DNA from: a virus
DNA length: 64,000 nucleotides
Strand: one strand, 5' to 3'
IMG/VR virus record: IMGVR_UViG_3300035492_000206
Of this stretch, positions 16,885-23,999 are shown one piece after another (the first letter of the stretch is position 1; every line of letters begins with the position of its first letter). The position numbers were made by a program, and so were the translations under genes. Below the pieces are notes generated by a model. The model was not told where the DNA came from. It was given only the letters and a program-made list of their open reading frames with translations, and ran no database searches.

Positions 16885-17361
16885 ATGGCCAATTTGCTGT
16901 TTTCGTTCGATGATCTGAGCGCCAAAGACAAGGCCGCGCGTGAAGCGGTCAAGCATTTCAAGAAGGCTGGAGCTACTGTTGCCCAGGTCGATGTCAATTC
17001 CACCATCCGCAAAAGTAGCGGTGTGGGCTACCGTGAGCTGCATCTGGTATTTAATGATAGCCAGACCATCGCACTACGCATCAAAGAGACAGGCGATATC
17101 TTCCAGGTCATGCTGAACAAGAAGGTGGTGCCGATTCGCAATCAGGACGATCACGCCAAAGCCATCAAGGAAATGGTGGCGCTAATGGATCGTGGTCGTG
17201 CTGCCTTCCAGAAGAAGCTGGCACGGCAAAAAGTCAAGCTGCCGTCCGGTGTCAAAACAGCAGCGCCGAAAATGGAAGTGGCATTGCAGCAGCGTCGCGA
17301 CGAGCTGGCATCCCAGGTGGCTGCAGCCAAAGCCCAGTTGGCAGAGCTGAACGCCGCCTGA
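16885..17361 (+). CDS. hdf: Hdf-like internal head protein (stand-alone DarA N-terminal domain)
   Basis: IRKSSGVGYRELHLVFNDSQTIALRIKETGDIFQVMLNKKVVPI...MDRGRAAFQKKLAR parallels the DarA_N region of the gene at 18204. Confidence 0.65.
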   Translation: MANLLFSFDDLSAKDKAAREAVKHFKKAGATVAQVDVNSTIRKSSGVGYRELHLVFNDSQTIALRIKETGDIFQVMLNKKVVPIRNQDDHAKAIKEMVALMDRGRAAFQKKLARQKVKLPSGVKTAAPKMEVALQQRRDELASQVAAAKAQLAELNAA

Positions 17362-18203: not shown

Positions 18204-21200
18204 ATGAAACACTCCGTCGCCTGGACCGAGCAGAACGAGCCTATCGGCCTGTCGCTCGATCAGCTCCTCTATCGTATGCGCCGCCATGACAGCCAGGATG
18301 GCCTGCTGTTTGACAGCGTTACCCTGAACGAAATCCTGCAGGAAGAAGGCGTCGAGCAGTTCGCCTTTGACGCCCTGGTATCCCCGTTTTCAAAGCTCAA
18401 GCGCAAGATGGATATCCTGTCGCGCACCATGGACCGCGCCATTGATGGCTATGGCGTGATCGCCATGCAGGTATCCGATCCGTTCAAGCGCAACGGCGTG
18501 GCTCAGGTTGCCGCCGTGTTCGAGCTGGCCGATGGTCAGACCGTGAGCGTTTACTTCCATAATCCGGACAACACCCCCGGCAAGTTGGCCCCTACTGATG
18601 AAATGATCAGCTGGAAGTGGCTGCTGAACAAGAAAGATATCACCATCGTGGTAGCCCCCGAGCGAGGCAATGACCTGCAGATTCGCGAAGTAGCACGCCG
18701 CATCATGAAGTTGGCGCAGAAGAACAGCGCTGCTTTTGCCAAGGCCAATGCCAAGCGCGCCGAACGTCTGGAGATGATCGAAGGCCTGCGCACTGAGATC
18801 AGCGATCTGGAATACGAACTGTCGGACCTGCAAGACCAGATTGAGGTTGCCAAGGTTGAGGCTGAAAGTCGCGCCATGGCCCCGTACAAGGCGGTCAAAG
18901 CGGCTGGCATGGCTGCACTGAATAGCTTCCGCAAGTTCCTGAGTCGCAGCCAGTACCGCGCCATGGTGGAAGCCATTGAGGGTGAAGAAGGTGCCGGTAT
19001 GGCTGACCGTGCCAAAGCGCTTGCGGCCATTATCGAAGGTATGGCGGCCACCTATGATCAGGACGGCAAGGGCGATAATGCCACCGTCTACCTGCATTAC
19101 TTCCAGAACAGTGCCGACTGGTTCATTACTGAAAAGGACGCTCAGGGCGGCACTCAGCAGGCCTTCGGCTATGCCGATATGGGGCAAGGCGGCGAGCTGG
19201 GTTATATCAGCATCGATGAGCTGACCAAAAACGGCGTCGAGCTGGACCTGTACTTTGATCCCAAGCCGCTCAAGGCGGTTAAGCCGTCCAGTGCCGGTAC
19301 CGATGAAGCCGAGGCCGACCTTGCGAAGGCGCATGCCGAGCTGGATGGACGCATCGATGCCCTGTCTGATGATGAAGCGCAGCGCATGGCGCAAGCTCTG
19401 GAGCTGAAGGTTGGTGCCGGTAAGGATTCGCGCGACGTGATCAAGCAGCAGCATCCTGACGATCAGCGTCGCGGGCTTGAGTTGATCGCCTCCCAGTCTG
19501 AGGCAAGCGAATCGACCGATCCCACAACCCCAGAAGGTTACGCCGCCATCATGGACGACGAGGCAGCACTGACCGCCGTTCAGGACCAGCTCGACAGCCA
19601 CTTCCAGGCGCGCATGATCGAGGTCCGCAACGCCCTGCGCGAACTGGGCTGGGAAGGCGAGCGCTTCAAAACCCTGTCGAAGAATGGCGTAGAGGCGGTA
19701 TTCGACCTGATTCAAGTGGGTGCCGGTGCCAATGTGGCCGGTATGACCATCAACGGCATCCGTGACGACCTGAGCAAAACCCCGGCAGAGTTGGCGGCTG
19801 AAGTGGATGCGCTGGCCGAGCCGGTGATCGAAATCGCCAAGTCCTACCGGAACTATGTCGACGATGCCGATGGTGATCTGTTCGAGGCGGCCAAGGCCTT
19901 TTTCAAGGCTGAGCTACAGGGCAAGGTCGTCAAGACAGTGATCGGCGATGTGCATATGACTGGTGGCGGCTTCAGGGAGATGAAGCGCGGCATGAAGTCG
20001 GATGAACTCAAGGCAAGATTGCTTCCCAGCGTGCCGGATATTCTTTCATCCGGCCGATACGACGGTCGCAGCGAGCTTCATAAGCCGCGCAACGATGGTT
20101 ATGTGGCGTTTCACTTCTTTGAGAAAGAAGTGGAGCTGGATGCCTTGATCGTAACCGCCGGGGTAAACGTCGGCGAGCGCAATGACAAGGCTCTCACCTA
20201 CACGGCATACGGTCTCGGATACGAAGGCGGAATTGGCTGGAAAAACAAAGCCGCATCCGGCGGTGTGCTCGATGCGGCTTCGTTCCGCGGGAAGGTGTTC
20301 CGAGGTCCAGGGGTGCCTAGTGAGCCAACAACCAAGCCCGGATCGACTTCCTTCCCCTTGCTCACTATGGATTCCAGTGTAGGTGCTAATGATGAAATTC
20401 TCAACCTCGTGATCCTTAAAGTGGTAGACAAGACCACAGGCGAAGAGCTGACTGAGTATGAGGATGCGCAGGAAGTCGAGCCCATAGAGTCCGACGGTAT
20501 CGAAGAAGTGCTCGATGAGCCTACAGCCGAACAGGTGCTTATCAACGACTTCTATCAAGCGATTCAGGATGAAACTGCTCACATAGAGTCTGCGATTGCA
20601 GGAATTGACTGGGATGCAATCACGGACGTGGAGACCGGCAACGAGCAGGCCGGGGCGCTACGTGATGCCGTAAAAGGGTATCAGCCTGTTGCCAAGGCGC
20701 TGGAGCAACTGGGCGCAAACGGCATCAATGACGGTAATGCGAGTCTGGCCAAGGTATTCGATTCCGATGCCTATCAGGCCAGGGATGAAGCAATGCTCAA
20801 GCTTCGCGAAACAGTCGACAGCATTCACGATCTGGGCAAAGACCGGCTGCGCAAGGCTGGCGAGGCTGAACTCGCATCATTGCCGGAAGACGCATCTCTG
20901 GAGGACGTAGCCAAAGCAATATTCCGCAAGCATGGCATTGACCTGGGTGAAGCTACGAGCGGTCGTGCGGCAGCCATAGTCGAAGGAATAGAAGAAAAGA
21001 ATGCTGAAATGCTCAGGGGCGTTCTGCTGGCAGGGAATAACCCTGCAAGCAACGAGATTTTCGAATATGCGACAGGCATCAAGCTTGCCAAAACCCAGAA
21101 GCAGCGCGGGGTTCAAATTGACGACTGGGCAGGGATCAGCGAGCAACAGCGTGCAGATATCGAAGCAGCGAAGGTCGCTGACAGGGAGGCTGAAGAGCTT

Positions 21201-22286
21201 GCCCGTGAGGTGTCGTCCGCGTGGGATGAGCTTGGGCGAAGCAGCGTGCGCAGCGAGCAGGGCATTCAGGACGGGCAACGTTATCTGATGGGGTTTGTGG
21301 ATGCAGGCGTGCGCGAAATCGGCACAGCGAAGAAGGGCGCAGCAACTGTATACGGCCTGCGCAACAACGATGGTTTGATCTCTGTAAGCGGCAAGAGCTT
21401 CAACCGCTTCCTGAAGGCGGCTACGGCTTACGGCGGCTTGATGCCTGCGCTTGAGCTGGTTGGTGCAGTAGCGACCAAAAGCCAGGAAGAAGAGGTGGCT
21501 CAGGGTGTGGGTGCTGAGGCGGTAAGCGATCCTGAGCAGGCACTGCAACAGGCGCGCGAACAAACCGATAGAGATCCAACCGATGAGCAGAAGGTAAGCG
21601 GCGACTACCAGAAGGGAGAGCTGAACGCCTTTGGCTTGACCCTGGCAATTGAAAATCCAAAGGGGCATGTCCGATCCGGCAAGAATGAAGGCGGGGACGA
21701 ATGGCAGGTAAGCATGGCGCACGACTATGGCTACATCAAGGGAACCAAAGGCCTGGACGGTGACGAAGTGGATGCTTTTATCGGCCCCAATCTCGAAAGC
21801 GAGAAGGTTTTTGTGATCGAGCAGGTGGATTCGGCGGGGGTGCTTGATGAGCACAAGGTAATGCTTGGGTTTGATGACGAAGAGAGCGCAAAACAGGGAT
21901 ACCTGTCCAGCTACAAAGCAGGCTGGGATGGTCTCGGTGCTATTCGCGAAATGAGCCTTACTGAGCTGAAAGAATGGCTGCCGACTGCCGGCGGGAAATC
22001 CATGCCTTCGCTTGAGCCTGAGCCAGCAGCTGAGCCAGAACCGGTAGAGCCTGAAGCGATGACTGAGCCTGATCAGCAAGCGGTGGAGCCCGAAAAGCAA
22101 GCTGATACCGACTACCTGCAGTCCATCATCGATCAGACCATTGCCGATCCGCTGGCGTCCGATATCGCCGATAAGCTGGGCGAAATCTTCGGTCGCAACG
22201 CCGGTGATGCCGAAATGGAAACCCTGATCGAACAGGCCGCTATGGCCTATCAAAATGCCGTCATGCAGGCCACTGCCAACCTCTAA
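18204..22286 (+). CDS. darA: DarA-family polyvalent internal head protein (DarA_N, DUF2958-like, LPD3-like, inorganic-pyrophosphatase-like, DarA_C)
   Basis: DarA_N: VFELADGQTVSVYFHNPD...MISWKWLLNKKDITIVVAPE. DUF2958-like: DWFITE..QAFGYADMG.GGELGYISIDEL..VELDLYF (~19040-19280). LPD3-like ~19880-20240. iPPase-like: IENPKG..RSG..HDYGYIKGT.G.DGDEVD..DEHKVMLGF (~21585-21980). DarA_C: DTDYLQSII... Confidence 0.85.
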   Translation: MKHSVAWTEQNEPIGLSLDQLLYRMRRHDSQDGLLFDSVTLNEILQEEGVEQFAFDALVSPFSKLKRKMDILSRTMDRAIDGYGVIAMQVSDPFKRNGVAQVAAVFELADGQTVSVYFHNPDNTPGKLAPTDEMISWKWLLNKKDITIVVAPERGNDLQIREVARRIMKLAQKNSAAFAKANAKRAERLEMIEGLRTEISDLEYELSDLQDQIEVAKVEAESRAMAPYKAVKAAGMAALNSFRKFLSRSQYRAMVEAIEGEEGAGMADRAKALAAIIEGMAATYDQDGKGDNATVYLHYFQNSADWFITEKDAQGGTQQAFGYADMGQGGELGYISIDELTKNGVELDLYFDPKPLKAVKPSSAGTDEAEADLAKAHAELDGRIDALSDDEAQRMAQALELKVGAGKDSRDVIKQQHPDDQRRGLELIASQSEASESTDPTTPEGYAAIMDDEAALTAVQDQLDSHFQARMIEVRNALRELGWEGERFKTLSKNGVEAVFDLIQVGAGANVAGMTINGIRDDLSKTPAELAAEVDALAEPVIEIAKSYRNYVDDADGDLFEAAKAFFKAELQGKVVKTVIGDVHMTGGGFREMKRGMKSDELKARLLPSVPDILSSGRYDGRSELHKPRNDGYVAFHFFEKEVELDALIVTAGVNVGERNDKALTYTAYGLGYEGGIGWKNKAASGGVLDAASFRGKVFRGPGVPSEPTTKPGSTSFPLLTMDSSVGANDEILNLVILKVVDKTTGEELTEYEDAQEVEPIESDGIEEVLDEPTAEQVLINDFYQAIQDETAHIESAIAGIDWDAITDVETGNEQAGALRDAVKGYQPVAKALEQLGANGINDGNASLAKVFDSDAYQARDEAMLKLRETVDSIHDLGKDRLRKAGEAELASLPEDASLEDVAKAIFRKHGIDLGEATSGRAAAIVEGIEEKNAEMLRGVLLAGNNPASNEIFEYATGIKLAKTQKQRGVQIDDWAGISEQQRADIEAAKVADREAEELAREVSSAWDELGRSSVRSEQGIQDGQRYLMGFVDAGVREIGTAKKGAATVYGLRNNDGLISVSGKSFNRFLKAATAYGGLMPALELVGAVATKSQEEEVAQGVGAEAVSDPEQALQQAREQTDRDPTDEQKVSGDYQKGELNAFGLTLAIENPKGHVRSGKNEGGDEWQVSMAHDYGYIKGTKGLDGDEVDAFIGPNLESEKVFVIEQVDSAGVLDEHKVMLGFDDEESAKQGYLSSYKAGWDGLGAIREMSLTELKEWLPTAGGKSMPSLEPEPAAEPEPVEPEAMTEPDQQAVEPEKQADTDYLQSIIDQTIADPLASDIADKLGEIFGRNAGDAEMETLIEQAAMAYQNAVMQATANL
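20241..20280 (-). terminator. Minus-strand intrinsic terminator inside darA
   Basis: Perfect 10-bp inverted repeat AAGCCGCATC (20248-20257) / GATGCGGCTT (20271-20280), followed on the minus strand by TGTTTTT. Confidence 0.7.
20241..20369 (-). ncRNA. Predicted ~130 nt antisense RNA inside darA
   Basis: Minus-strand promoter at 20376-20404, 8-bp 5' hairpin (20318-20325 with 20360-20367), and an intrinsic terminator at 20241-20280. The ends are predicted. Confidence 0.55.
20376..20404 (-). promoter_or_regulatory. Minus-strand sigma70 promoter inside darA
   Basis: TTGAGA (20404-20399), 17 nt spacer, TACACT (20381-20376). Confidence 0.65.
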
Positions 22287-22292
22287 GGACGA

Positions 22293-23999
22293 ATGATGAA
22301 TCTTTTTTTCGATGCTACCGAAAGTAGCAAAGCTAAATCGACGCTTGCCAGGCTCCGCCTGGTCGGCGCTTTGGCCAAGGTACGCAAAGATATCCTGGCG
22401 CTGGGTGCGGGGGCTGGCAATATTGTCCAGCGCCTGCAACTGGCCAAAGAAGCCTTGAGCCTGCGTGAGCAGCTGGGCGAGCTTGATGCACCCAACGATG
22501 TTGAATCAGATAATGAACCCGACCGGGAAGCCATTCTGGGCGTATTCAGGCAGCTTGGGCGTGACTACCCAGATCGTAGTATGTCTGTTGCAGGGAATTT
22601 GGCGGGCAGCGTGGTGGCGCTGATCCGTGAGGCAGTAGGGCGCGAGGTCATGCCAGAGGAGCTGAGGCAACTGGTCAGCATGGAGGATCGACGCGCCGCC
22701 TATCGAGAAGGCCAGCGGTCTGTCGACCCTGTCGCAAGCGCCGTTGTTGCCATGCACGATGTGATTGAGGCACAGGCTGATGTCCCTGCTGCTGTCGTGC
22801 GCGACGATATCGGAGCGGTTGACTTTATCTGGGGCGAAGAGGGCAAGGAGCCGACTGCATCCGGTAAGCGCAAAGGTGCCAAGGGTGTGGCGCATATCCT
22901 TGAGGCACGAATGCGCAAGGATGGCCTGAGCCTGGAGGAGGCTGCCGCTGTGGCAGAGGAAGTGGCAAAAGTGGTCGCTACAGGCGAGATTACACTAACC
23001 CATCACCATCAAGATGTGAGCCAAGCTACCATTACAGACGGCAAGTACTCTGCAATCATGGTGAAGCGGGAAGGTAGTAATGCATGGCTGCTGACAGGGT
23101 GGGAAGAAAATAAGGATTCCGATGCCACTGGCAAGGGGGATGACAAAACCAGCGCTACGCACTCCGGGCCTACACCTGCCCGTCCCGGAGAGGGAGCGGA
23201 ACCCTCTGATATCAATATAGCACAATCTCAGGATGAAGGTCAGCCGACCGATGAAGGCAGTGCGTCTACAATAGCTGCCCACGGCCTCGCACTGGAGGTG
23301 CCGGCCATTGATCAGCAGCTGATAGATGATTACAACCGCACGACTCATGTATTTGGTGGCCGCGACTTCAATGCAGAACTCCGCAGCGAAGCGGAAAGCC
23401 TTTTGAATGAACTGGTCGAGCGAAACCACACGCTGGATACCCCGGAGCAGCAGGCACTGGCCAAAGAGCTGATCGAATCCTACCTGCAGGCCCAAGCGGA
23501 GTTCGCGCAGTGGAATGCGCGCTTCAGCACCAGTAACCCATCTTGGATTGTGACTGGCCGCAGTGGTCGCGACATGGGCAAGTACAATCGCGCCAATGAG
23601 CGGCACATGGATGAATACACCCGGCGCGTTGACCAGTTGCAGGCCCAGCGTGACCGCATAGGCGAAACGCTCTACAAGATGCGCCCCCAAGAGGTTCAGG
23701 TAGAACAAGCACTGGGCTCGGACTTGCGCGGCATTACCCAACAGGCCGGGCATATTCTGGGTTATTTGGAGGAGGGTAAAGCCGCGCTGGTTGCGGAAAC
23801 CCGCAAATGGGCCGCACCTAAAGCGCACAAGTTGATCGAGCGCAGCCTGACTGTCGACCGTAACCGCACCCTTGAGCATATCCGCGAGCTGGAAAACTCC
23901 AAGTCCGTACAGGATGCCGGTGGTTTGGCCAAGGTGTTCGGCCCTCGCTCAAAGGCAGGCAAGCTGGTGGAGACGCTTCTGAGTGAGCCTGACTCTTGA
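22293..23999 (+). CDS. Second polyvalent head-targeted protein with a BECR/barnase-colicin-like (PBECR) nuclease domain
   Basis: N-terminal LARLRLVGAL...RLQLAKEALSLREQLG leader. DIGAVDFIWG..KGVAHILEAR..SAIMVKREGSNAWLLTGW domain (~22780-23110). SWIVTGRSG..KYNRANERH segment typical of polyvalent proteins. Confidence 0.65.
   Translation: MMNLFFDATESSKAKSTLARLRLVGALAKVRKDILALGAGAGNIVQRLQLAKEALSLREQLGELDAPNDVESDNEPDREAILGVFRQLGRDYPDRSMSVAGNLAGSVVALIREAVGREVMPEELRQLVSMEDRRAAYREGQRSVDPVASAVVAMHDVIEAQADVPAAVVRDDIGAVDFIWGEEGKEPTASGKRKGAKGVAHILEARMRKDGLSLEEAAAVAEEVAKVVATGEITLTHHHQDVSQATITDGKYSAIMVKREGSNAWLLTGWEENKDSDATGKGDDKTSATHSGPTPARPGEGAEPSDINIAQSQDEGQPTDEGSASTIAAHGLALEVPAIDQQLIDDYNRTTHVFGGRDFNAELRSEAESLLNELVERNHTLDTPEQQALAKELIESYLQAQAEFAQWNARFSTSNPSWIVTGRSGRDMGKYNRANERHMDEYTRRVDQLQAQRDRIGETLYKMRPQEVQVEQALGSDLRGITQQAGHILGYLEEGKAALVAETRKWAAPKAHKLIERSLTVDRNRTLEHIRELENSKSVQDAGGLAKVFGPRSKAGKLVETLLSEPDS

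What the first reader, a model, noticed from the sequence alone, without database searches (positions are those of the whole stretch)
20241..20404. Complete antisense sRNA gene hidden in darA directly after the LPD3-like domain
Seen on the minus strand: TTGAGA-N17-TACACT, a predicted start near 20369, an 8-bp hairpin (TAGTGAGC/GCTCACTA), then a perfect 10-bp stem with a T tract. All of it lies inside the open darA frame, whose peptide here (KNKAASGGVLDAAS...TMDSSVGANDEILN) looks like a by-product of the DNA signals. Inference: a constitutive RNA of about 130 nt that silences leaky darA mRNA in the lysogen, or acts as an RNA antitoxin for the adjacent putative nuclease. The domain and its RNA would then travel as one cassette inside a virion protein. 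I know of no description of this arrangement.
Basis: partly seen in the sequence, partly recalled or inferred. Interest (0 to 1): 0.78.

Follow-up and report, generated by a model that had tools for sequence, protein, structure and literature searches.

The report
Antisense small-RNA gene behind LPD3 domain
A complete small-RNA gene (promoter, folded RNA, terminator) is written backwards inside the flexible linker that follows one domain of a giant phage virion protein, and nearly every relative of that domain keeps it, so domain and RNA seem to travel and work together, most likely with the RNA keeping the domain's expression in check.

Summary
In this window alone the promoter match is at chance level. 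Comparison with relatives is what makes the unit convincing.

- **Conservation:** 12 of 16 genes of this LPD3 clade keep a -35/17-nt/-10 promoter, a folded RNA and a hairpin plus U tract at the homologous place; the other 4 keep it in part. So do six of seven more distant LPD3 domains.
- **Not a coding by-product:** both signals exceed a null that keeps each protein and its codon usage (Fisher 4e-13 and 7e-16).
- **Covariation:** the helices covary, and one loop motif is read in all three frames.
- **Core:** the window's RNA (about 129 nt) has an 88-nt pseudoknotted core that is 74-91% identical across phages whose neighbouring codons are saturated.
- **Stand-alone copies:** the core also occurs intergenically in other mobile elements.
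- **Databases:** no Rfam family matches, and the paper that defined LPD3 mentions no such RNA.

This scan has reported LPD3-linked antisense RNAs on other DNA before.

I read it as a real cis-antisense sRNA gene that travels with LPD3 and probably represses it. No transcript could be shown and the function is inferred.

The parts
18204..22286 (+). Host gene: 1360-aa polyvalent virion protein (DarA_N aa 53-175, LPD3 aa 558-661, InPase aa 1128-1259)
   Evidence: ORF list and translation; Pfam hits all above the curated cut-offs
19875..20186 (+). LPD3 domain as matched by Pfam. Protein homology among relatives continues to about aa 754 (nt 20465), so it spans the RNA gene
   Evidence: 52.4 bits against a 27-bit cut-off. 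BLASTP and alignment of 20 homologs. AF2 model: core confident, aa 692-734 pLDDT < 50
20399..20404 (-). -35 hexamer TTGAGA of the antisense promoter. It overlaps the Leu-Asn codons of ILNLVIL
   Evidence: Best promoter-like site at the same aligned place, always with a 17-nt spacer, in 13 of 14 clade genes. Exceeds the synonymous-codon null
20376..20381 (-). -10 hexamer TACACT. Its first two bases (TA) come from the GTA valine codon that follows the conserved LDS-type motif (TMDSS here)
   Evidence: TAnnnT is kept in nearly all relatives through NTA codons
20241..20369 (-). Predicted antisense sRNA, about 129 nt, from the inferred start to the end of the U tract
   Evidence: Start inferred from the -10 position. 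Fold -57.4 kcal/mol, z -3.8. No conserved ORF or ATG in the homologous RNAs. No transcript data
20284..20371 (-). 88-nt conserved core of the 'long-type' RNA, 74-91% nucleotide identity in 7 gene copies from divergent phages and prophages; 4 stand-alone copies also match the core model
   Evidence: Covariance model R1 recovers every copy among the loci searched at 88-115 bits and nothing else
20360..20367 (-). Pseudoknot helix S2, 5' arm UAGUGAGC, at the 5' end of the RNA
   Evidence: 97.7% of cells paired; U-A replaced by C-G in two sequences
20318..20325 (-). Pseudoknot helix S2, 3' arm GCUCACUA. It lies in the apical loop of the S3/S1 hairpin and contains the family-wide GGCUC motif
20350..20356 (-). 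Helix S3, 5' arm GGGAAGG
   Evidence: 6 of 7 pairs change on both sides across the 11 copies
20289..20295 (-). Helix S3, 3' arm CCUUCCC
20337..20346 (-). Helix S1 with its UCGA extension, 5' arm UCGAUCCGGG
   Evidence: (two pairs with double changes; G-U/A-U/G-C interchange at one pair)
20300..20311 (-). Helix S1 with extension, 3' arm CCUGGA-CC-UCGG
20241..20282 (-). Intrinsic terminator: 12-bp stem (CGAAGCCGCAUC / GAUGCGGCUUUG), 13-nt loop, UUUUU
   Evidence: Covariation: 6 of 11 pairs with double changes, and a wholly different stem at the same place in L003. P = 0.004 against the synonymous-codon null

Best explanation
Positions 20241-20404 hold a real, independently transcribed small-RNA gene on the strand opposite to the polyvalent 'DarA-like' gene.

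**Anatomy.** A sigma-70-type promoter (TTGAGA-17 nt-TACACT) starts an RNA near 20369. The RNA folds into a long hairpin (helices S3 and S1). The apical loop of that hairpin pairs with the RNA's own 5' end to form the pseudoknot helix S2. Transcription ends at a hairpin plus U tract at about 20241.

**Relation to LPD3.** The gene is overprinted on the disordered linker that follows the LPD3 domain. It is an ancestral, obligate companion of that domain. Relatives carry either this ~130-nt 'long' form or a ~78-nt 'short' form (a 5' hairpin plus a long terminator hairpin) at the same place.

**Most likely mode of action (inferred, not shown).** It acts as a cis-antisense regulator.
1. The RNA is made from a promoter with no conserved operator.
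2. It pairs with the perfectly complementary stretch of the polyvalent mRNA just 3' of the LPD3 codons. Pairing probably starts at a YUNR-type loop (GGCUC-R).
3. The duplex leads to cleavage, for example by RNase III, or to a block of the mRNA.
4. LPD3-containing protein is therefore made only when late transcription outruns the RNA.

**Confidence by step**
- The unit is under selection as a nucleic-acid element: shown.
- It is a transcribed sRNA gene: about 0.85.
- It acts by antisense repression of its host gene: about 0.5.
For: 1. **Promoter.** In 13 of 14 clade genes the best promoter-like site on the antisense strand is at the same aligned place, always with a 17-nt spacer, scoring 8-11 of 12.
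   - It stays 17 nt from the -10 even where the protein has insertions (L001, L032).
   - It is present where the NIVIL motif is absent (L043: TTGTCA-17-TATAAT).
   - Against a null that keeps each protein and its own codon usage, the score exceeds the null mean in 14 of 14 genes. P < 0.05 in 10 of 14; Fisher 4e-13, assuming independence.
2. **Terminator.** An 8-14 bp hairpin plus T-rich tail lies at a fixed distance, giving an RNA of 78-80 or 115-131 nt, in 12 of 14 genes. P <= 0.03 in 11 of 14; Fisher 7e-16. The stems covary while the peptides encoded on the arms differ (KAAS/DAAS, EAS/DAS, KAS/EAF).
3. **Whole-gene scan.** Across 12 polyvalent genes (46.7 kb, both strands) the homologous site is hit in 10 of 12, with only 3 hits anywhere else.
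4. **Structure.** On 11 long-type copies, 89% of cells are paired against 33-46% with slid partners. 15 pairs change on both sides against 2-6. 0 of 500 shuffles reach the observed values.
5. **Nucleotide-level selection.**
   - RNA core 74-91% identical, against 24-44% third-codon identity in the adjoining LPD3 core.
   - The loop motif GGTCAARAGCC is read in phases 0, 2 and 1 in L028, L029 and L032.
   - A complete copy lies intergenically in another mobile element (L019).
6. **Strand.**
   - Promoter and U tract make sense only on the minus strand.
   - G-U outnumbers A-C 23 to 8, once one invariant A-C is set aside.
   - The minus strand folds better.
7. **More distant LPD3 domains** also have the unit: L039, L040, L047, L048/L049, L050.
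8. **Architecture** resembles known antisense RNAs whose terminator loop is the recognition loop and carries a 5' YUNR motif (PMC6562991).
Against: - **No transcript evidence.** The only RNA run holding the region gives one unstranded 260-nt contig (20088-20347, depth 3). It runs past the terminator and stops short of the predicted 5' end, so it looks like mRNA or DNA, not the sRNA.
- **The window's promoter is middling.** It is only 9/12 and, alone, at chance level.
- **Conservation is higher than cis-antisense needs.** A purely cis-acting antisense RNA needs no conserved primary sequence. Yet helices S1 and S2 and the loops of the long form are almost invariant across phages in which helix S3 has diverged to saturation. 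That points to an additional or different partner in trans.
- **Orphan copies.** Stand-alone copies lie in assemblies where no LPD3 gene was found, so there is no cis target there.
- **Non-independence.** The Fisher P values treat related genes as independent.
- **Some relatives are imperfect.** L005 has a weak -35, L002 a weak terminator, L032 a poor U tract, L044 an unclear promoter, and L045 has no evident unit.
Confidence: 0.55

Rival explanations
1. The RNA is real, but it works by binding the LPD3 domain protein as an inhibitor, cofactor or chaperone. This would be like a type III RNA antitoxin. Its antisense position would then serve only to keep the two genes linked.
For: - The pseudoknot and loops of the long form are almost invariant in primary sequence, while a neighbouring helix covaries freely. 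That fits recognition by a protein.
- Type III antitoxin RNAs are pseudoknots (own knowledge).
- The LPD3 core weakly resembles BECR-fold RNase toxins such as CdiA-CT, BrnT and RelE/HigB (best Z 4.7; about 20 of the top 50 rows).
- The RNA follows the domain, not the host gene, through many architectures.
- Earlier scan notes report small stand-alone LPD3-like genes with a convergent sRNA (not checked here).
Against: - There are no tandem repeats and the RNA is not on the toxin's strand.
- RNA bodies differ widely between LPD3 subclades (long, short, closed-stem forms) while the LPD3 core stays alignable.
- On the LPD3 tree the long form is not clearly tied to one protein clade, although the tree is unresolved.
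- The fold match is below the tool's noise level.
Confidence: 0.2
2. The RNA is a weapon or an immunity factor between mobile elements. A resident phage or island makes it to silence, in trans, the polyvalent gene of incoming relatives that share the conserved core.
For: - Stand-alone copies exist outside any LPD3 gene. L019 is intergenic, with a TTGACA-17-TAGGAT promoter and a terminator, next to umuD-like, umuC-like and DUF3987 genes. L018 and L020 are further copies.
- No LPD3 was found in the two assemblies that hold such copies.
- The core is nearly identical in unrelated phages, so one RNA could pair with many targets.
- According to earlier notes, this phage already carries a CRISPR system aimed at sibling phages (not tested here).
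Against: - Targeted phages should escape by diverging, yet the core is conserved.
- Three of the four stand-alone copies are damaged: L018 has no promoter match, L020 has no terminator, and L037 is decayed. They may be relics of degraded prophages.
- The assemblies are incomplete MAGs.
- The unit is universal inside LPD3 genes, which a purely offensive role does not explain.
Confidence: 0.12
3. There is no antisense transcript. The conserved helices act in the sense mRNA (ribosome pausing at a domain boundary, recoding, mRNA processing) or as a DNA homology patch for domain shuffling. The promoter-like pattern would then be incidental.
For: - Every helix can also form in the sense strand (z -2.3).
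- With the invariant A-C pair counted, G-U against A-C is 23 to 19, which gives no clear strand signal.
- The element sits exactly at a domain junction of a mosaic protein family.
- The one RNA contig is compatible with sense mRNA.
Against: - No conserved slippery heptamer precedes the pseudoknot (sequences), and short-type genes have no pseudoknot.
- On the sense strand the hairpin is preceded by an A run, which has no known role. On the antisense strand the same bases form a U tract directly behind the stem.
- The -35/17-nt/-10 pattern exceeds the codon-preserving null and keeps its spacing through protein insertions.
- A complete intergenic copy exists (L019).
- A recombination patch would not show compensatory changes.
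Confidence: 0.08
4. Chance, or a by-product of protein coding. Lys codons give the T run, [IVLF]-Asn codons give TTGA, and Ala-rich peptides give the hairpin.
For: - The amino-acid sequences alone already give null promoter scores of 5.4-8.4 of 12.
- The window's promoter is at chance level on its own.
Against: - Promoter and terminator both exceed the protein-preserving null.
- The helices covary while the peptides on the arms change.
- A conserved motif is read in three frames.
- Only 3 background hits in 93 kb, against 10 of 12 at the homologous site.
Confidence: 0.02

Closest known systems
Phage lambda OOP RNA: short antisense RNA from promoter pO, complementary to the 3' part of cII, RNase III-dependent (Krinke and Wulff 1987, 1990, as listed in PMC5869508; its 77-nt length is from my own knowledge)
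   Same: A phage-borne, short, promoter-to-terminator antisense RNA that overlaps a coding region and has no conserved operator. The short-type RNAs here have almost the same length (76-84 nt).
   Different: OOP overlaps the end of a small regulatory gene and an intergenic space. This RNA gene, promoter and terminator included, lies wholly inside the codons of a linker in the middle of a 1360-aa structural or injected protein. It follows one protein domain through domain shuffling. No transcript or RNase III dependence has been shown here.
Type I toxin-antitoxin loci with antisense RNAs that overlap the 3' end (Bacillus subtilis txpA/RatA, bsrG/SR4, yonT/SR6; PMC6562991, PMC3834814)
   Same: A convergent antisense RNA pairs with the region just 3' of the controlled coding segment. 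The terminator loop may serve as the recognition loop, and a YUNR-type motif is present (here GGCUC-R in the apical loop). The expected outcome is mRNA cleavage.
   Different: The partner is not a small hydrophobic peptide but a soluble domain of about 150 aa inside a polyvalent protein. Toxicity of LPD3 is unproven. The RNA gene lies in frame inside the same ORF rather than behind a stop codon.
Type III toxin-antitoxin systems (ToxIN, CptIN, TenpIN; own knowledge)
   Same: A structured, pseudoknotted RNA genetically tied to a protein that may have an RNase-like fold; the pair is mobile.
   Different: No tandem repeats. The RNA is antisense, not upstream on the same strand. There is no evidence that LPD3 processes or binds it.
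LPD3-linked antisense or convergent sRNAs noted earlier in this scan (e1-5288013, e1-5301406, e1-880742, e1-880622, e1-843228, e1-1063189, e1-1365147, e1-5327331)
   Same: The same design: a promoter-sRNA-terminator unit on the opposite strand, directly behind an LPD3 or LPD3-like domain, and absent from Rfam. In my own small sample of more distant LPD3 domains, six of seven have such a unit.
   Different: Those notes concern other lineages (candidate-phyla-radiation bacteria, gut phages, Clostridia) and RNAs of about 75-90 nt. The window's RNA is a longer variant with an 88-nt, highly conserved pseudoknotted core that also occurs as stand-alone copies. I did not compare sequences with theirs.

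Membership tests
Cis-encoded antisense sRNA gene (OOP-like) | Own promoter on the strand opposite to the target gene | tested here: met
   -35/17-nt/-10 at the homologous place in 13 of 14 clade genes. It exceeds the codon-preserving null and the whole-gene background. This is sequence evidence only.
Cis-encoded antisense sRNA gene (OOP-like) | Intrinsic terminator that gives a short discrete RNA | tested here: met
   Hairpin plus U tract at a fixed distance in 12 of 14 genes, with covarying stems.
Cis-encoded antisense sRNA gene (OOP-like) | Transcript of the predicted strand and size exists | not testable with these tools
   Only unstranded Logan contigs were available. There was one RNA-library contig, which does not match the predicted ends.
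Cis-encoded antisense sRNA gene (OOP-like) | Lowers expression of the sense gene | not testable with these tools
   Needs promoter knock-out and expression assays.
Type I toxin-antitoxin | Toxin is a small hydrophobic peptide whose mRNA the RNA pairs with | tested here: not met
   The sense partner is a 1360-aa polyvalent protein. The LPD3 core is a soluble alpha/beta domain.
Type III toxin-antitoxin | Antitoxin is a tandem array of RNA repeats upstream of the toxin on the same strand | tested here: not met
   No tandem repeats in 19900-20700. The RNA is antisense.
Any Rfam 15 family | Match to a curated covariance model | tested here: not met
   No match at E <= 1 in window 19000-21500. No match at E <= 0.1 in 13 related loci.
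LPD3 (PF18798), for the host domain | Score above Pfam's gathering cut-off | tested here: met
   52.4 bits against 27, aa 558-661.
   Foldseek found nothing at E <= 0.001. In VIA-align the best Z is 4.7 (6cp9_A, rmsd 3.8 A over 91 residues). Many BECR toxins appear among the top rows, but all are below the tool's noise level of Z 7-8.
-1 programmed frameshift signal (sense-strand reading of the pseudoknot) | Conserved slippery X XXY YYZ heptamer 5-9 nt upstream of the structure | tested here: not met
   The conserved upstream bases are ..GTTCCGAGG.. (TGTTCCGAGG in most copies), with no slippery heptamer. Short-type genes have no pseudoknot.

The most novel reading that the evidence does not exclude
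LPD3 plus its overprinted antisense RNA may be a portable, RNA-controlled toxin cassette. On this reading LPD3 is a BECR-like RNase delivered with the virion, and the RNA is its antidote, acting by pairing with the mRNA, by binding the protein, or both. A resident prophage or island that makes the RNA would then be protected from its own LPD3 and from LPD3 of incoming relatives. That would explain the near-invariant core shared by unrelated phages and the orphan copies in other mobile elements. It would be a toxin-antitoxin-like module whose antitoxin gene is written inside the codons of the toxin's own polyprotein.
Probability: 0.2. Interest if true: 0.9.

Novelty: new variant of a known kind. 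Interest (0 to 1): 0.72.

Why it matters
**For polyvalent proteins.** These virion proteins are read as strings of protein domains. Here one 'linker' is also a complete RNA gene, and its peptide motifs (the NTA codon after LDS, the [IV]-N ten codons later, the KxK run) are largely the imprint of a -10, a -35 and a U tract.

**For LPD3.** The domain has no known function. A conserved RNA partner gives a direct handle on it, because the idea that LPD3 is harmful and needs an RNA brake becomes testable.

**For annotation.**
- Domain boundaries and 'low-complexity linkers' in phage giants can hide regulatory genes.
- Synonymous recoding of such genes could destroy those hidden genes.
- Covariance models for these RNAs could mark LPD3 cassettes.

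**For phage conflicts.** The highly conserved long-type core and its orphan copies hint at RNA-level interactions between competing mobile elements.

Tried and rejected
**Searches that added little or nothing**
- **RNA evidence.** Sequencing-run look-up and read laying gave only contigs. The RNA-library run X15 gave one 260-nt unstranded contig at 20088-20347, depth 3. This says nothing for or against the sRNA.
- **Cultured phages.** The INPHARED phage records have no DNA or protein match, so no cultured phage with expression data was found.
- **Exact-pattern scans.** Most 17-20-mer hits were chance matches (L006-L010, L012-L017, L022, L024). IMG/VR added only one true copy (L011, the same as L005).
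- **More loci.** The search for related loci failed with the broad alignment. With a narrower one it added three loci: L031 and L032 were new, L030 duplicated L027.
- **Other genomes.** Profile and covariance-model searches of 400 and 150 sampled genomes found no further copies.
- **Second target.** No other site in the window is complementary to the conserved loops at up to 3 mismatches.

**Analyses that were inconclusive**
- **LPD3 tree against RNA type.** The tree is unresolved. The long type needs 4 changes on the ML tree, but a single origin is not excluded.
- **Fold searches.** There is no clear fold match for LPD3.
- **Short-type alignment (A4).** It was not in register for stem counting, so I used per-sequence hairpins and folds instead.

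**Readings I rejected**
- **A mistake of mine, corrected.** At I read the two Pseudomonas plasmid homologs (L039, L040) as lacking the unit. They have it: GTGATA-17-TAnnnT and a long-range closing stem plus U tract. My hairpin finder allowed loops only up to 33 nt.
- **Sense-strand frameshift signal.** There is no slippery site.
- **Overprinted antisense protein.** Several homologous RNAs have stops in all three frames, and most have no ATG.
- **Attachment site or fragment of a host RNA gene.** There is no Rfam match, and the covariance model hits nothing in the sampled genomes.
Full report
**The observation**

- TTGAGA (20404-20399), 17 nt, TACACT (20381-20376).
- The arms TAGTGAGC (20367-20360) and GCTCACTA (20325-20318).
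- A perfect 10-bp stem, AAGCCGCATC / GATGCGGCTT, which extends to 12 bp with one G-U and is followed by TTTTT (20245-20241).

All of this lies in the open frame 18204-22286. That frame encodes a 1360-aa protein with DarA_N (aa 53-175), LPD3 (aa 558-661) and InPase (aa 1128-1259) domains. The finding covers aa 680-734.

Taken alone, the promoter is unremarkable. It is a 9/12 match, and 5 such sites were found in 7 kb against 2.9 +/- 1.6 in shuffles. The predicted 129-nt RNA does fold unusually well: -57.4 kcal/mol, z -3.8. The sense strand gives -48.9 kcal/mol, z -2.3. No Rfam family matches.

**What the relatives show first**

Twenty homologs of the LPD3 region were found. Their protein homology runs through to about aa 754, so it spans the finding.

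A subset shares an almost identical peptide here (FRGPGVPSEPTTKPGSTS.PLLTMD). That subset includes proteins only 38% identical overall. The DNA under this peptide explains why.
- An 88-nt block (20284-20371) is 74-91% identical at nucleotide level between phages.
- In the same phages, the adjoining LPD3 codons are 24-44% identical at third positions, which means they are saturated.
- Exact-pattern scans found further copies of the block in MAGs of Nitrosomonas, Halothiobacillaceae and other Proteobacteria.
- Three of those copies have no LPD3 reading frame around them (L018, L019, L020). A fourth such copy, L037, turned up later in the same MAG as L019.

**Promoter and terminator are conserved, also where the block is missing**

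I fetched the DNA of LPD3 homologs that lack the block (L025-L029, L031, L032). I expected them to serve as negative controls. Instead they carry the following on the antisense strand, at the homologous place:
- TTGAnn-17 nt-TAnAnT.
- About 80 nt further on, a 9-14 bp hairpin followed by a T run.

The tallies are as follows.
- The best promoter-like site is at the same aligned position, always with a 17-nt spacer, in 13 of 14 genes.
- The spacing is kept where the protein has insertions (L001, L032).
- The promoter is present in a helicase-type protein that lacks the NIVIL motif altogether (L043: TTGTCA-17-TATAAT, 11/12).
- Counting all 16 clade genes with DNA, 12 have the whole unit clearly and 4 have it in part: L005 has a weak -35, L002 a weak terminator, L032 a poor U tract and L044 an unclear promoter.

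**Controls against a coding by-product**

I resampled synonymous codons. Each protein sequence was kept and each gene's own codon usage was applied.
- The observed promoter score exceeds the null mean in 14 of 14 genes. P < 0.05 in 10 of 14; Fisher 4e-13.
- The hairpin plus T tail reaches P <= 0.03 in 11 of 14 genes; Fisher 7e-16.
- The genes are related, so the combined values overstate the case. The direction is nevertheless uniform.

Three further observations point the same way.
- A scan of 12 entire polyvalent genes on both strands (93 kb) for 'promoter, then hairpin and T tail 60-160 nt downstream' hit the homologous site in 10 of 12 genes and only 3 places elsewhere.
- The peptides encoded on the two hairpin arms differ between genes (KAAS/DAAS, EAS/DAS, KAS/EAF), while the pairing is kept.
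- The loop motif GGTCAARAGCC is read in codon phases 0, 2 and 1 in three genes.

The predicted RNAs have no conserved ORF or ATG.

The AlphaFold model places aa 692-734, where the RNA body and the -10 lie, in a segment with pLDDT < 50. That segment sits between a confident LPD3 core and a short ordered stretch. The RNA gene therefore occupies a disordered linker.

**Structure of the RNA**

On 11 long-type copies I counted a four-helix structure.
- S2: the RNA's 5' end pairs with the apical loop.
- S3: GGGAAGG / CCUUCCC.
- S1: GAUCCGGG / CCUGGACC, extended by UCGA / UCGG.
- The terminator.

The counts:
- 89% of cells are paired, against 33-46% when partners are slid.
- 15 pairs change on both sides, against 2-6 in the slid controls.
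- 0 of 500 shuffles reach the observed values.

S3 and the terminator covary heavily. S1, S2 and the loops are nearly invariant.

Once one invariant A-C is set aside, G-U outnumbers A-C 23 to 8 on the minus strand. With it counted, the figures are 23 to 19. This is modest support for the minus strand. The promoter and the position of the U tract add to it.

Short-type RNAs (76-84 nt) fold as a 5' hairpin plus a long terminator hairpin. The 7-nt apical loop of that hairpin begins CUCR, which is a YUNR-type motif. The GGCUC motif is shared with the long type. z-scores run from -3.3 to -5.5.

**How far the association reaches**

- Two cultured Pseudomonas plasmids carry LPD3 homologs at 39-41% identity. 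I first misread them as lacking the unit. They have it: GTGATA-17-TAnnnT, a closing stem and a U tract.
- A Pfam LPD3 search of 400 sampled genomes gave four more domains. L047 and the tandem pair L048/L049 have the unit; L045 has none that I can see.
- A second LPD3 gene in one MAG has it too (L050).
- No Rfam family matches any of these loci.
- The paper that defined LPD3 and polyvalent proteins mentions no antisense RNA or promoter, and it leaves the function of LPD3 open (PMC5512222).
- Earlier notes of this scan describe LPD3-linked antisense or convergent sRNAs in other lineages. So the scan has found this theme before on other DNA. My results agree with those notes, and the evidence here was computed independently of them.

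**Stand-alone copies**

- L019 is intergenic. It lies between a umuD-like gene and an HTH gene, near umuC-like and DUF3987 genes. It has TTGACA-17-TAGGAT, the core and a terminator. Its similarity to the phage genes ends at the -35 on one side and at the U tract on the other.
- L037 is a decayed second copy in the same MAG.
- L018 lacks the promoter match, and L020 lacks the distal terminator arm.
- No LPD3 domain was found in the two assemblies with such copies. Both are incomplete MAGs.

**Mechanism**

Three things are shown: selection on a nucleic-acid unit with the anatomy of an sRNA gene, its strand bias, and its linkage to LPD3. That the unit is transcribed is inferred.

The most economical function is cis-antisense control of the LPD3-bearing mRNA. 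The parallels are lambda OOP and cII (RNase III-dependent; references in PMC5869508) and the Bacillus type I systems whose antisense RNAs overlap the 3' end of the toxin mRNA. In those systems the terminator loop with a YUNR motif starts the pairing (PMC6562991). The promoter spacer is not conserved, so no shared operator is evident.

Two things sit badly with a purely cis role: the near-invariant primary sequence of the long-type core, and the orphan copies. They keep two alternatives alive.
- A protein-binding role like that of a type III antitoxin.
- A role in trans between competing mobile elements.

The resemblance of the LPD3 core to BECR-fold RNase toxins is suggestive but below noise. 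The best Z is 4.7, although many CdiA-CT, RelE-like and BrnT chains appear among the top rows. Foldseek found nothing significant. The 'nuclease' label therefore remains unproven.

**Verdict**

The kind of element, a phage antisense sRNA, is known. This arrangement is a new variant, because a whole sRNA gene is overprinted on a protein linker and inherited with one domain. It is absent from Rfam and from the literature I could search.

Noticed in passing
window 23095-23243 (minus strand), inside gene 22293-23999: The next gene carries a PBECR1 RNase-type domain (aa 167-275, ending at nt 23118). Directly behind it, on the antisense strand, lies CTGACC-18-TATATT with a TG extension. After that a long-range closing stem (GAGGGUUCCG / CGGAAUCCUU) is followed by a U-rich run. 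The design is the same as behind LPD3. However, the fold z-score is only -0.7 and I did not examine homologs.
   Followed up: partly
L019:2109-2288 (+), L037:870-1034 (+), L018:4472-4641 (+), L020:1304-1468 (+): Copies of the long-type RNA unit stand outside any LPD3 reading frame. L019 is complete and intergenic, beside umuD-like, umuC-like and DUF3987 genes. The other three are damaged to varying degrees. No LPD3 domain was found in the two assemblies searched.
   Followed up: partly
window 20367-20375 (peptide M-D-S of TMDSS) and the homologous place in all relatives: The motif [LM]-D-S just before the -10 is kept in the same frame in every LPD3 homolog seen, including distant ones (GTLDST, GMLDSE). 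It looks like a protein-level feature. The RNA's first transcribed bases (GAAUC) are its reverse complement.
   Followed up: no
L048 and L049 (one 600-aa ORF in genome G365): Two tandem LPD3 domains in one reading frame are each followed by their own near-identical antisense unit: TTGACA-17-TAAGTT or TATGTT, an 89-nt RNA closed by a long-range stem, and a U tract. This suggests that domain and RNA duplicated together.
   Followed up: partly
L028:1908, L029:2399, L032:974: The same 11-nt motif GGTCAARAGCC, which forms the apical part of the antisense terminator hairpin, is translated in three different codon phases (SRA, QKP, KSP) in three homologous genes.
   Followed up: yes
window 16885-17361 and L001:484-960, L026:1-345, L027:1-450: A separate small DarA_N-only gene sits shortly upstream of the polyvalent DarA_N-LPD3 gene, both in the window and in several relatives. 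DarA_N is therefore present twice in these modules.
   Followed up: no
window 19900-20700, as seen in public runs: Near-identical DNA of this phage region occurs in tar-pit, hydrocarbon, gas-well, rock, soil and sludge metagenomes from at least a dozen studies. One gut metatranscriptome contig covers 20088-20347.
   Followed up: partly
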